Part shown: positions 6,001 through 9,000 of the stretch, piece by piece
Numbering within the stretch: the stretch's first letter is position 1
Layout of the letters: each line of letters opens with the position of its first letter
IMG/VR virus record: IMGVR_UViG_2703718787_000020
Direction: 5' to 3' (one strand)
From: a virus
Taxonomy: Duplodnaviria > Heunggongvirae > Uroviricota > Caudoviricetes
Length of the DNA stretch: 12,113 bases
Position numbers: made by a program

Positions 6001-9000
6001 CAAGAAAACCACGGCGCAGCGGGGCGTGAGTGGATTAAATGGCTTGCGGAGAACCAGCAGGAAGCTAAGGACGCGGTTAGAGAGAGCCGTGCACGCTGGC
6101 GAAATATCATTCCAGACAATTACGGTGAGCAGGTCCACCGCGTGGGTGAACGTTTCTCCATACTGGAGGCCGCGCTTGTGCTTTCCGGTCATGTAACTGG
6201 CTGGTCCGTGCAGGAATGCCGCGATGCAATTCAGTATGTATTTAATGCCTGGGTAAAAGAATTTGGCACGGGCAACAAGGAACACAAACAGATCATTGAG
6301 CAGGCAGAGGCGTTTCTTGCTGCCTACGGCATGAGCCGTTTTGCGCCCGTTGATTATGACCCAGCCAGCCTGCCGATTTCTGAGCTGTACGGCTACAGGG
6401 ATTCGGGAAGCCGTTACGATGAACCATTGTTGTTTTACGTATTATCGGAGCCGTTTAAATCGAAAGTAGCGGAAGGCTTCAACAAGGATACCGTTGCAAA
6501 AATACTCCACGAAGCTGGAATGCTGAAACGACCAGAGAGCGGGAGAGGATGGAAAATCAAGACCCCACGCCTTAAGAACCTTAATGGAGCGCAATTATGG
6601 GCCTACGGGATGTTGTTCGCTAATCACGATGAGGAGGGAAGCGATTAACTACGCGTATATAAGATGAAAAAATGTTGCCTCAGTTGCCTCAAATAGTAAT
6701 AAATATATGTATATGATTGATTTATATATTTTATTTCTGTTTTTGCTGAGGCGACAATTGCTCATTTTGAGGCGACAATTGCTCATTTTGAGGCAACAAT
6801 TGCTCATTTTGAGGCAACAATTACCCATTTTGAGGCAACACGGCTGACAGGTTTTGTTTGTCTGAACGGAACGCGTTCAACGTGATGTTGCCTCAAATAC
6901 CCCCTATTGTTGCCTCAAATCGACATGATGTTGCCTCAATTTTTTTGTGATTATCAATTAAATCAATGCGTTAAGACGTTTGAGGCAACTGGGGCGACTG
7001 AGGCAACACGTTTTTCCTATATATATAAAGCGTGTGAATGATGTGATGCCTGGAAGGAGACGATTCATGATCAAAAAAACAAGTGAAACGGAATCTGTTG
7101 TGAGGTTCGTATCGGTACGAGGCAGAGCCACGCTTTATATACCTGACGAACATCTGCATCACTGCGATGAAAAACATATCCCGATCCTGATTGTCTGGAA
7201 GCGAACGGTATACGCCGATGTGACATGGCTGAATGATTCGCTGATGTTGATACACCGTGACCTGTTTGAACGTGAAGAGTTCCGGCGGGATATTGAAGAG
7301 CGGGCAGAAAAAATCTATGAGAAATATTCAGCAAACAGTAAAAGATCCGCACGGGCAATCGCTCACCATTTCATGACGCTGTATGACCTGAAAGCGGAAG
7401 ATGCAGAAAAAGCGGCATGTGATTTATTCGATATGACAATGGGGATTATCCAGGAGTACCGGAACAAGGAGCGCAGACCATGACAGCACAGATTGCAGCT
7501 TACGGGCGGCTGGTGGACGACCAGCAGGTAAAACAGACCAGCAAAGGAACACCAATGGCACTGGCGCGTATGGCGGTATCTTTGCCATGCAGTCAGGCAC
7601 AGGACGGACAGGCGACGTTATGGCTATCAGTCCTGGCATTTGGTAAGCAGGCCGACGCGCTGGCGAGACATGAAAAAGGCGACCTTATCAGCGTGGCGGG
7701 TAACATGCAGATCAGCCAGTGGACCGGACAGAACGGAGAAATACGGCAGGGCTGGCAGGTTATCGCTGACAGCGTAATCAGTGCCCGTTCGGCGCGTCCT
7801 GGCGGGAAGCGGGGGCAACAGGGGAAGGCGACCGAAGCACTGGAAAGAGCAAAACGACAGACCGGACAGCAGGGAAATCAGCCACCAGCGGGAGGTGATG
7901 ACCCGTTCTCTGACGATATTCCTTTCTGAATGACAGGAGCACAACATGAACCAGCAGACCACACAACAGGACCAGACCACACGCAGACCCACGGAGCGCC
8001 CATCATGGCGACACATGACGAAGCGGCAGCGAAAAAACCGCAGGAGGATAAACCGACTGGCTGAGTACTGGCCTGAACTGTTTGGGGCAGAGACTATAAA
8101 GCCCCTGAAAACGGGCATAATACGTGATGTGCTTGAGGACGCTAAATCACGGGAATTACCGATTGGTCATGGCGTATTACGTGGCGCATTAACCTCATAC
8201 ATCCACACGTCGCGATACCTGAAAGCCATTGTCGCTGGTGGCCCTCGGTATGGACTGAACGGGCAGCCTTGCGGTGAAGTCACGGAAGAAGATAAATCAG
8301 TCGCCAGTGAACTACTGAAGCGGAGACTGGAGCAGATGAAGCAGAAAAACAGTCAGCAGTAATCAGCCGGAGGTAAAGCCAGTGATAACGGACAGCGTGG
8401 CACAGAAACTTGAGGAGCGCGGTTTATGGCGACGTGCGGCGACCCGATGGTCTGAGGTTCTTCTTCACGCAGAAACAGACAGGGAACGCGAGGAAGCTGC
8501 CAGACGTCGGGCGATATGTATCATTAAATCCCGTCGTATGCCTGAGCAGTTTGTCACCTTTGGCGATGTGAAAAAGGCCGCAGACAGAACGCTGAAAGAG
8601 ATGGGGATTAATCCACAGGATGAATGGCGAAATTACAGCTTCAGTGATGCAGGCGACGATTTAGCGCTATCGTGATACGCATCTCATCGCCGTATTTGCT
8701 CAATTATCGCGATTCGCTATAATCACCACCGAAAGGCCGTTGATGGTGTTCGCCTCGGGCAACTGGAGCCCGACTGAATGAAGCCAGCCAGCGGCTTTTC
8801 GGCACTCATTCCGGTGTATCTCCCATACATCGGGATGAGTGAACGACGAAAACATCACGGTGATTTCGTCATGCCGCGATAAGAATGCGCCTCTTTGGGC
8901 AATTGAAGCCCTCTGTACAGCGGGTTATCGCGGCAAAGTTGTGATAAAAACGCGCCTCTTTGAGCAACTGGAGCTCACTGTAAAGCGGCTTATCACAGCA

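What the first reader, a model, noticed from the sequence alone, without database searches (positions are those of the whole stretch)
6674..7008. Iteron-type origin immediately downstream of the primase/helicase gene
Twelve copies of the core TTGAGGCAAC occur in both orientations, including 4.4 perfectly phased 21-bp tandem iterons, next to a 54-bp segment of about 85% A+T. This is the architecture of a Rep-bound origin with a DNA-unwinding element, and it sits where P4 (ori/crr) and PICI elements place theirs. The last two iterons overlap the likely -35 region of the downstream gene (7067), which suggests the Rep protein also controls that promoter.
Basis: partly seen in the sequence, partly recalled or inferred. 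Interest (0 to 1): 0.6.

Follow-up and report, generated by a model that had tools for sequence, protein, structure and literature searches.

The report
Replication origin of a phage satellite
The repeat cluster is very probably the replication origin of a phage-parasitising chromosomal island (PICI) of E. coli, a kind of origin already described, though here one half of it is repeated 5.7 kb away near the end of the island.

Summary
Twelve exact copies of TGAGGCRAC, plus one degenerate copy, all lie in 6674-7007 (0.2 expected by chance). They flank a 54-bp, 85% A+T stretch that is the least stable duplex in the 12-kb window.

The window is a ~14-kb island at tRNA-Gly in E. coli STEC2018-607 (int, alpA-like, DUF4222, Rep, repeats, ssb, proQ, perC). 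[quoted passage not shown]

The 712-aa Rep resembles the SaPIbov1 initiator-helicase and SCCmec Cch. It has no detectable primase domain.

Across 26 relatives the layout is conserved, but at least 8 different iteron words occur. The word tracks the Rep C-terminal ~110 residues, not the helicase core.

The array has two dyad-related halves. Unit A is 6674-6839 and unit B is 6887-7029. Unit B recurs 5.7 kb downstream, just beyond the window. In relatives that lack an adjacent unit B, a unit B always sits near the far end of the island, 2-11 kb away, which recalls P4 ori/crr.

Rep control of the downstream promoter remains unproven.

Verdict: a new member of a known kind, with moderate interest.

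The parts
4510..6648 (+). rep: a 712-aa DUF927 initiator-helicase of the SaPIbov1 Rep / SCCmec Cch family. No primase domain is detectable.
   Evidence: Pfam DUF927, E 2e-42. PDB sequence hits 8tch (E 2.6e-14) and 5dgk. Foldseek of the AF2 model gives only 8tch and 5dgk as significant hits, E about 5e-14. The N-terminal 160 aa have no Zn-ribbon or Toprim hit at E<=5, whereas the L007 and L012 relatives do.
6310..6645 (+). Coding region for the Rep C-terminal ~110 aa (residues 601-712), the inferred iteron-recognition domain.
   Evidence: Identity to the L003-L006 Reps drops from about 80% in the core to 32-44% here, together with a change of iteron word. Partial Mantel r(iteron, C-terminus | core) = 0.66, p = 0.0002. 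The model topology is helix-strand-strand-helix-helix-hairpin, which is winged-helix-like, but confidence is low.
6656..6673 (.). Left outer element, TATATAAGATGAAAAAAT. It mirrors the right outer element.
   Evidence: Inverted repeat with arms 6656-6691 and 6990-7025: 36 nt, 75% complementary.
6674..6691 (-). Unit A: two tandem iterons (GTTGCCTCA x2, 9-bp period).
   Evidence: Sister alleles carry 2 or 3 copies, and the difference is a whole 9-bp unit.
6692..6746 (.). Unit A AT-rich spacer, the predicted DNA-unwinding element. It contains AAATCAAT on the minus strand.
   Evidence: 85% A+T. It is the least stable 40-mer in the window, z = 5.1. AAATCAAT recurs in this spacer in relatives that use other iteron words.
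6747..6839 (+). Unit A: five direct iterons phased at exactly 21 bp.
   Evidence: Sister alleles carry 4 or 5 copies, and the difference is a whole 21-bp unit.
6887..6938 (-). Unit B: three iterons at 22- and 21-bp spacing.
   Evidence: Inverted-repeat arms 6788-6821 and 6906-6939: 34 nt, 79% complementary.
6939..6980 (.). Unit B AT-rich spacer (76% A+T). It holds the only perfect IHF-consensus match in the window, AATCAATGCGTTA at 6961-6973.
   Evidence: The same AAATCAAT..GTTA motif is present in the distal unit B of L008 and L042.
6981..7007 (+). Unit B: three tandem iterons at a 9-bp period. The middle one is degenerate (TGGGGCGAC).
   Evidence: Sister alleles carry 3 to 5 copies.
7008..7029 (+). 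Right outer element, ACGTTTTTCCTATATATATAAA. It is conserved in relatives whatever their iteron word. It is either a promoter -10 region or an outer part of the origin.
   Evidence: Conserved after the terminal triple iteron in most long-form loci and after distal B units. It does not match the sigma-70 consensus in the scan.
7067..7483 (+). First gene after the origin (138 aa, no family match). It is followed by ssb (7480-7929).
   Evidence: No Pfam or PHROG hit. This slot varies among relatives: at least 4 unrelated small ORF families occur, or ssb follows directly.

Best explanation
Positions 6656-7029 are the replication origin of a ~14-kb PICI-type phage satellite integrated at tRNA-Gly.

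Proposed mechanism:
1. The island's Rep is a self-loading AAA+ initiator-helicase of the SaPIbov1-Rep/Cch family. Its C-terminal domain reads the 9-mer TGAGGCRAC.
2. Thirteen sites are arranged as two dyad-related half-origins. Unit A is two tandem (-) sites, a 54-bp 85% A+T spacer, then five 21-bp-phased (+) sites. Unit B is the same grammar rotated: three phased (-) sites, a 42-bp AT-rich spacer with an IHF-like site, then three tandem (+) sites.
3. Rep oligomers assembled on the oppositely oriented site sets melt the AT-rich spacer, predicted at about 6697-6737, and load as hexamers without DnaA.
4. Host DnaG presumably does the priming, because this Rep allele has no recognisable primase domain. 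The island's own SSB is encoded just downstream.

Shown here: the repeats, their layout, the homology of Rep, the conserved grammar in relatives, and the covariation of iteron word with the Rep C-terminus. Inferred: binding, melting site, loading and priming.

Unit B is a separable module. A second copy lies 5.7 kb downstream, near attR. It may also act as a Rep-responsive promoter or as a crr-like cis element.
For: 1. Non-random cluster with strict phasing. The least stable duplex of the window lies between oppositely oriented iteron sets.

2. Island context. The gene order is int, AlpA-type HTH, Icd/Ash-like, DUF4222, Rep, [repeats], ssb, ProQ, PerC, bounded by a tRNA-Gly 3'-end repeat. The DUF4222-Rep-ori-hyp-ssb-PerC order is the same as in EcCICFT073, whose pri-rep-ori segment drives plasmid replication (PMC6092414).

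3. [quoted passage not shown] The EcCICFT073 intergenic region shows the same grammar with a different word, GGTAGAC.

4. Rep homology. There are sequence hits to 8tch and 5dgk. The fold search returns only these two as significant. SaPI Reps bind iterons immediately downstream of rep through a C-terminal winged-helix domain and self-load (PMC9371898).

5. Relatives. In 26 relatives from many Enterobacterales genera the layout starts about 25 nt after the rep stop and is stereotyped, but at least 8 iteron words occur.

6. Covariation. The word tracks the Rep C-terminal ~110 aa and not the helicase core. Partial Mantel r = 0.66 (p = 0.0002) against -0.2 for the reverse test. The window and L003-L006 share 79% core identity but only 36-38% C-terminal identity and 3 of 9 iteron bases.

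7. Distant sites. Iteron clusters 2-11 kb from rep carry the same word as the rep-adjacent cluster in every island checked, although the cargo between them differs. Simple linkage does not explain this easily.

8. Sister alleles. Eight alleles differ mainly by whole 9-bp or 21-bp units and at the R position of the iteron.

9. No DnaA box (<=1 mismatch) and no GATC site in 6649-7066, which fits a DnaA-independent self-loading initiator.
Against: There is no experimental evidence for this island or for any DUF927-type Gram-negative PICI Rep. The validated EcCICFT073 Rep belongs to a different helicase family and shares only the N-terminal ~130 aa.

The C-terminal domain model has low confidence (pLDDT 61). 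Its best fold match, the winged-helix protein TcpK (5vfx), is not significant at E = 0.04.

Covariation between the C-terminus and the adjacent iterons could partly reflect physical linkage. The iteron words were also put into a common register by hand before the test.

The division of labour between unit A and unit B is unknown, so part of the array may serve transcription or copy-number control rather than initiation.
Confidence: 0.85

Rival explanations
1. Split function. Only unit A (6674-6839) is the origin proper. Unit B (6887-7029) is a separate Rep-responsive module that can sit anywhere in the island. It would be either (a) a promoter whose -35 region is occupied by the tandem triple iteron, with an IHF bend and three upstream Rep sites, so that transcription of downstream genes is coupled to Rep; or (b) a crr-like cis element that enhances or limits initiation by pairing with unit A. 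This refines the best explanation rather than excluding it.
For: Unit B is duplicated 5,689 bp downstream at 85-96% identity, including about 28 nt beyond the TATATATA.

All four short-form islands examined (L002/L042, L008, L043, L044) have unit A beside rep and a unit B 2.3-10.7 kb away near the island's right end, always in the same orientation. The two long-form islands checked (L040, L041) have no distal copy.

The T-tract plus TATATATA(C)AAAA element after the triple iteron is conserved across different iteron words. It is followed by varied genes or, at distal copies, by a conserved ~100-nt sequence.

The only IHF-consensus match in the window lies in the unit B spacer.
Against: The scan finds no sigma-70-like promoter on the + strand. 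The TATATA/TATAAA hexamers lack the conserved final T, and there is no -35.

A mirror copy of the outer element sits at the left end, facing into rep, which suggests a structural role in a dyad-symmetric origin.

No terminator follows rep, so downstream genes may not need their own promoter.

At distal positions unit B faces attR, with no + strand gene annotated after it.
Confidence: 0.4
2. The array is purely a transcriptional operator region, bound by Rep or another island regulator to control the ssb-proQ-perC operon. Replication starts elsewhere or depends on the helper phage.
For: The repeats lie in the only sizeable intergenic gap of a one-directional gene block, upstream of ssb. The terminal iterons abut a conserved AT-rich element.
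Against: The grammar of opposed site sets around an extreme AT-rich spacer just 3' of an initiator-helicase gene matches experimentally defined SaPI and EcCICFT073 origins. The word covaries with the Rep C-terminus. Nowhere else in the window is there a comparable unstable region flanked by repeats.
Confidence: 0.06
3. The array is a packaging (pac/cos) or partition (centromere-like) site made of repeated binding sites for a terminase small subunit or a ParB/ParR-like protein.
For: Phased 21-bp repeats are also typical of centromere-like sites and some pac sites (general knowledge).
Against: The island has no par genes and no terminase gene in the window. The repeat word tracks the Rep C-terminus. 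A separate cos-like candidate region exists near 10093-10360.
Confidence: 0.03

Closest known systems
Replication origins of Gram-negative PICIs, e.g. EcCICFT073 (Fillol-Salom et al. 2018, ISME J, PMC6092414)
   Same: The island type and synteny are the same (int, alpA, DUF4222, rep, ori, small ORF, ssb, perC). The origin lies immediately 3' of rep and has oppositely oriented iteron sets around an AT-rich region. Tandem 9-bp-period pairs sit at the ends. The first ~130 aa of Rep are shared.
   Different: EcCICFT073 Rep is a 584-aa 'DNA primase family protein' with a different helicase core, not DUF927, and its iteron word is GGTAGAC. The window's origin has not been tested experimentally. The text read here does not mention a kilobase-distant second cluster; the figures could not be inspected.
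SaPI origins and SaPI Rep (SaPIbov1 Rep, PDB 8tch; Rep1/PriRep5, PMC9371898)
   Same: The Rep is homologous in sequence and predicted fold. The origin lies immediately downstream of rep, has 6-12 iterons and a central AT-rich region, and has at least two iterons on each side pointing in opposite directions. Specificity resides in the Rep C-terminal domain.
   Different: SaPI iterons are penta- or hexanucleotides, whereas here they are 9-mers with 9-, 11- and 21-bp phasing. Sequence identity to 8tch is only about 15%. The host and island lineage are different. The two-unit dyad and the distal unit B are not part of the SaPI description read here.
Satellite phage P4 ori plus crr with alpha protein (from memory, not checked; P4 alpha and its cognate site are mentioned in PMC6092414)
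   Same: Both are satellite replicons in which one multifunctional initiator-helicase binds short iterons through its C-terminal domain. Both have a second iteron cluster kilobases from the first. Here unit B lies at 5.7 kb, and at 2.3-10.7 kb in relatives.
   Different: Rep is DUF927/MCM-like, not a P4 alpha-type primase-helicase. Nothing shows that the distal cluster is required in cis. In many relatives both units are adjacent.
Iteron plasmid origins (pSC101, R6K, P1, F; Rep_3-type initiators; general knowledge)
   Same: Both have phased direct repeats of about 21 bp next to an AT-rich unwinding element and a possible IHF site. Extra iteron clusters that could pair with the origin ('handcuffing') are also a shared feature.
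   Different: The initiator here is itself a helicase. The origin has no DnaA box and no GATC. The iterons occur in opposed sets. rep lies upstream of the iterons and is not overlapped by them, so an autoregulation layout is not evident.

Membership tests
PICI/SaPI-type Rep-ori module | The origin lies immediately 3' of the replication initiator gene. | tested here: met
   The first iteron starts 26 nt after the rep stop codon. Relatives show the same offset of about 22-29 nt.
PICI/SaPI-type Rep-ori module | Two sets of iterons in opposite orientation flank an AT-rich region. | tested here: met
   Two (-) sites, a 54-bp 85% A+T spacer, then five (+) sites; the pattern repeats as three (-) sites, a 42-bp 76% A+T spacer, then three (+) sites.
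PICI/SaPI-type Rep-ori module | The initiator is a self-loading AAA+ helicase homologous to SaPI Rep. | tested here: met
   phmmer hit to 8tch at E 2.6e-14 and to 5dgk at 3e-4. Foldseek gives 8tch and 5dgk at E about 5e-14, with no other significant hit.
PICI/SaPI-type Rep-ori module | A C-terminal winged-helix domain of Rep determines iteron specificity. | tested here: inconclusive
   Specificity maps to residues 601-712 by covariation. The fold is only weakly supported: the C-terminal model has pLDDT 61 and its best match, the winged-helix protein 5vfx, has E 0.04.
PICI/SaPI-type Rep-ori module | The cloned rep-ori segment replicates in a Rep-dependent way, and Rep binds the iterons. | not testable with these tools
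   This has been shown only for EcCICFT073 and for SaPIs in the literature.
Gram-negative PICI (the island itself) | Site-specific integrase and att site, an alpA-type regulator after int, rightward one-directional gene order, a size of about 10-15 kb, and no full set of phage structural or lysis genes. | tested here: met
   The island spans about 14.1 kb between the tRNA-Gly 3' end and its repeat.
Gram-negative PICI (the island itself) | Induction, packaging and transfer by a helper phage. | not testable with these tools
   The only evidence is a cos-like motif and phased repeats at 10093-10360, and these have no match among phage records.
P4 ori/crr replicon | A P4 alpha-type initiator (primase plus SF3 helicase plus C-terminal DNA-binding domain). 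| tested here: not met
   Pfam finds only DUF927. There is no primase Zn-ribbon or Toprim domain and no P4 alpha-type helicase domain.
P4 ori/crr replicon | A second iteron-bearing cis element lies kilobases from ori. | tested here: met
   Six TGAGGCRAC sites lie at L001 17977-18097, 5.7 kb downstream and inside the island. Whether they are required in cis was not testable.
Iteron plasmid origin (Rep_3 / DnaA-assisted) | A Rep_3-type (WH1-WH2) initiator together with DnaA boxes in the origin. | tested here: not met
   No Rep_3 hit. No DnaA box with <=1 mismatch in 6500-7150.

The most novel reading that the evidence does not exclude
DUF927-type PICI replicons may be bipartite. Unit A is fixed beside rep. 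Unit B is a second Rep-site module (three phased iterons, an IHF-like site, three tandem iterons, then a TATATATA element) that can move. It sits either next to unit A or kilobases away at the attR-proximal end of the island, and the window's island has both. Under this reading unit B is required in cis, like P4 crr. Alternatively it is a Rep/IHF-dependent outward promoter that, once the island has excised and circularised, reads across attP into int and alpA. Either way replication would be coupled to the excised state of the satellite.
Probability: 0.35. Interest if true: 0.6.

Novelty: new member of a known kind. Interest (0 to 1): 0.4.

Why it matters
PICIs spread virulence and defence genes among enterobacteria, and their origin/Rep pairs decide which satellites can coexist and replicate after helper-phage induction.

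This locus adds a specificity group (TGAGGCRAC) found in only 11 of 5,426 complete E. coli genomes.

The comparative set provides a ready-made map linking the Rep C-terminal sequence to the iteron word. That map can be tested by domain swaps and could serve to design orthogonal satellite replicons.

The separable, sometimes distant unit B suggests that PICI replicons may be organised like P4 ori/crr. This is directly testable with deletion constructs.

Tried and rejected
- Sigma-70 promoter and terminator scan of 6400-7300: no + strand promoter and no terminator.
- Rfam scan of the window: nothing in the origin region. The only hit is a C4 antisense RNA at 3463-3550.
- Literature search for the iteron words themselves: only unrelated primer hits.
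- Literature search for P4 crr details: nothing useful was held, so the P4 comparison rests on memory.
- Structure of the Rep C-terminal domain alone: low confidence, and no significant fold match.
- Test of whether the outer TATATA/T-tract element is mirrored at both ends in all relatives: only moderate support (mean z 1.0; 7 of 19 loci with z > 2).
- My early idea that unit B comes as a cassette with the extra small ORF before ssb: rejected, because L007, L013, L016 and L018 have unit B followed directly by ssb.
- blastn of the cos-like region 10040-10480 against phage records: no match.
- The 59-aa minus-strand ORF at 6649-6828 lies across the repeats and the AT-rich spacer. I treated it as spurious and did not test it further.
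Full report
**1. Observation**

The repeats are real and highly non-random. TGAGGCRAC occurs 12 times in the 12,113-bp window, always within 6674-7007. Shuffles give 0.2 copies and never more than 2. A thirteenth, degenerate copy (TGGGGCGAC, 6990-6998) completes a tandem triple. In seven sister alleles this position reads TGAGGCGAC.

Five copies (6747-6831) are spaced at exactly 21 bp. Tandem Repeats Finder reports period 21, 4.5 copies and 95% matches.

The 54 bp at 6693-6746 are 85% A+T. Positions 6697-6737 form the least stable 40-mer of the whole window (z = 5.1; the next best is about 3).

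**2. Context**

The window is identical to E. coli STEC2018-607 (NZ_CP075697.1). It lies in a ~14.1-kb island bounded by tRNA-Gly and an imperfect repeat of the tRNA 3' end.

The genes run in one direction: integrase, AlpA-type HTH, a Rha/Ash/Icd-like ORF, two small ORFs, DUF4222, a 712-aa DUF927 protein, the repeats, a 138-aa ORF, SSB, ProQ/FinO, three PerC paralogues and a Q antiterminator.

This is the organisation of Gram-negative phage-inducible chromosomal islands (PICIs). EcCICFT073, the experimentally studied example, has the same order DUF4222-Rep-intergenic-small ORF-ssb-PerC.

**3. What the literature says about such regions**

Fillol-Salom et al. 2018 (PMC6092414) make three relevant statements.
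- In Gram-negative PICIs the region immediately 3' of the initiator gene is the origin.
- The EcCICFT073 rep-ori segment supports plasmid replication that depends on rep and is reduced when ori is deleted.

For SaPIs, Rep is a self-loading initiator-helicase. Its C-terminal winged-helix domain recognises 6-12 iterons immediately downstream of rep, with a central AT-rich region and at least two iterons per side in opposite orientation (PMC9371898).

**4. The protein**

The 712-aa protein matches the SaPIbov1 Rep (8tch, E 2.6e-14) and the SCCmec helicase Cch (5dgk) by sequence. These two are also the only significant fold matches of its AlphaFold model (E about 5e-14; model pLDDT 70).

It is not demonstrably a primase. 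Relatives of 919-927 aa carry a primase zinc ribbon and a Toprim domain, but the N-terminal 160 aa of the window protein match neither, even at E<=5. Those N-terminal ~130 aa are instead shared with the otherwise unrelated EcCICFT073 Rep.

**5. Comparative test**

I collected six E. coli relatives and 23 loci from other Enterobacterales. Twenty-six of these loci (counting the window itself) were usable.

In nearly all usable loci the same layout begins about 25 nt after the rep stop:
- two or three tandem (-) sites at a 9-bp period;
- a ~50-bp spacer of 75-93% A+T;
- three to five (+) sites at 11- and 21-bp spacing;
- usually two or three further sites, a second AT-rich spacer, and a tandem (+) triple.

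The site sequence differs between lineages. The words include TGAGGCAAC, TGGGACAAG, TAACCCGCA, TAACCCACA, TAACCCGTT, TGAACCAAC, TGAGACAAC and TGAACCGAC.

The word tracks the last ~110 residues of Rep, not the helicase core.
- The window and L003-L006 Reps are 79% identical in the core but 36-38% identical at the C-terminus, and share 3 of 9 iteron bases.
- Partial Mantel r(iteron, C-terminus | core) is 0.66 (p = 0.0002). The reverse test gives -0.2.

Two caveats apply. The C-terminal coding region adjoins the iterons, so linkage contributes. I also set the register of the iteron words by hand.

Linkage is a weaker objection for the distant clusters described in section 7, which also carry the matching word.

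Among eight alleles of the window's own specificity group, differences are mostly whole 9-bp or 21-bp units, plus the R position of the iteron.

The origin contains no DnaA box and no GATC.

**6. Internal anatomy**

The array has dyad symmetry. Arms 6656-6691 and 6990-7025 are 75% complementary over 36 nt. Arms 6788-6821 and 6906-6939 are 79% complementary over 34 nt.

I therefore describe two half-origins. Unit A spans 6674-6839. Unit B spans 6887-7029 and is unit A rotated.

Each spacer contains AAATCAAT. In unit B this motif is part of the only perfect IHF-consensus match in the window (6961-6973).

Both outer ends carry a T/A-tract plus an alternating TATATA element. Across relatives the mirror relation of these outer elements is only moderately supported.

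**7. Unit B is a separable module**

A second copy of unit B lies 5,689 bp downstream, at L001 17968-18136. This is 454 nt beyond the right end of the window, inside the island and 1.2 kb from attR. It is 85-96% identical to unit B beside the origin, and the similarity extends about 28 nt past the TATATATA.

Four relatives have only unit A beside rep. All four carry a unit B, built from their own iteron word, near the island's right end:
- L002/L042 and L008 at 2.3 kb;
- L043 at 10.7 kb;
- L044 at 8.2 kb.

Two islands with an adjacent unit B have no distal copy. The cargo between A and B differs completely between islands.

This pattern recalls P4 ori/crr. It could equally mark a Rep/IHF-dependent promoter or a copy-control site.

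**8. The promoter claim**

In favour: the terminal triple iteron is followed in most relatives by a conserved TTTT-N-TATATATA(C)AAAA element. This element lies upstream of unrelated first genes, or of ssb directly. At distal copies it lies upstream of a conserved ~100-nt sequence.

Against: the element does not fit the sigma-70 -10 consensus and has no -35. A mirror copy faces into rep. No terminator separates rep from the downstream genes.

The claim is open. I put the probability that unit B has a function separable from initiation at about 0.4.

**9. Verdict**

The finding is correct in substance. This is the cognate origin of a PICI-type satellite, a known kind of element with a published architecture. 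The iteron specificity here occurs in only 11 of 5,426 complete E. coli genomes.

What goes beyond the published description, as far as I could check from text alone, is threefold:
- the map relating Rep C-terminus to iteron word across Enterobacterales;
- the two-unit dyad grammar;
- the position-flexible unit B.

Confidence that the region is the Rep-bound origin is 0.85. The novelty class is a new member of a known kind, and the interest score is 0.4.

Noticed in passing
L001 17968-18136 (NZ_CP075697.1 3723395-3723563; window-equivalent 12567-12735, 454 nt beyond the window end): A second copy of the origin's unit B lies 5,689 bp downstream of the first, inside the island and 1.2 kb from attR. 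It has three phased (-) iterons, an AT-rich spacer with AAATCAATGCGTTA, three tandem (+) iterons and TATATATATAAAGCG. Short-form relatives have their only unit B in a comparable distal position (L042, L008, L043, L044).
   Followed up: partly
L008 7560-7700; L042 about 10680-10770 (reverse strand); L043 20010-20160; L044 about 10150-10240 (reverse strand): The distal unit B copies of islands with different iteron words are followed by a conserved ~100-nt sequence (TTGCATTCAGGAGGGGGGATCGAAATCCCTACAACCCATTGCTTATGGGAC...). This may be a small transcript or a conserved island-end element.
   Followed up: no
window 3463-3550 (+): An Rfam C4 antisense RNA (RF01695, 77.7 bits, E 3e-14) lies inside the annotated 569-aa Rha/Ash/Icd-like ORF, just upstream of its Icd-like C-terminal part. 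This resembles a P1/P4-type immunity RNA module and raises doubt about whether the long ORF is a single real gene.
   Followed up: no
window 8757-9125: Five + strand copies of GGGCAAYTGRAGC (0.09 expected) lie about 60-140 bp apart in a non-coding stretch after the first perC gene. The stretch ends in a GC hairpin plus T-run (about 9063-9125). It may be a structured sRNA, and it lies close to the ProQ/FinO gene (7946-8362).
   Followed up: no
window 10093-10117 and 10276-10475: ACGGGATCGGCGACATTACGGGTT resembles, from memory, the lambda cosN region. It is followed by three back-to-back short tandem arrays with A-tracts in 11-12-bp phase (TGAAAAATCCCC, AAAAAATGCGCA, AAATCGATCACA) and partial inverted copies. 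This could be a cos/cosB-type packaging site. blastn against phage records found nothing.
   Followed up: partly
window 4510-4900 (Rep residues 1-130): The N-terminal ~130 aa of Rep form a confidently modelled alpha/beta domain (pLDDT 83-91). The domain is shared with the EcCICFT073 'DNA primase family' Rep and, according to blastn hits to the first 100-400 nt, with RepA-type helicase Reps. It appears to be a common module on three helicase families, always downstream of a DUF4222 gene. Its function is unknown, and it has no Toprim or Zn-ribbon signature.
   Followed up: partly
window 7067-7483: The first gene after the origin (138 aa, no family hit) occupies a variable slot. Relatives have at least four unrelated small ORF families there, or none. 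Its only homologue in the set is in a Rahnella island (L026, 51% identity) that has a different Rep specificity.
   Followed up: partly
window 11442-11840: The satellite carries a phage Q-type antiterminator gene (Pfam E 7e-51) and three PerC paralogues (8382-8675, 9593-9895 and about 9900-10064). A Q protein on a satellite could act on the helper phage's late operon.
   Followed up: no
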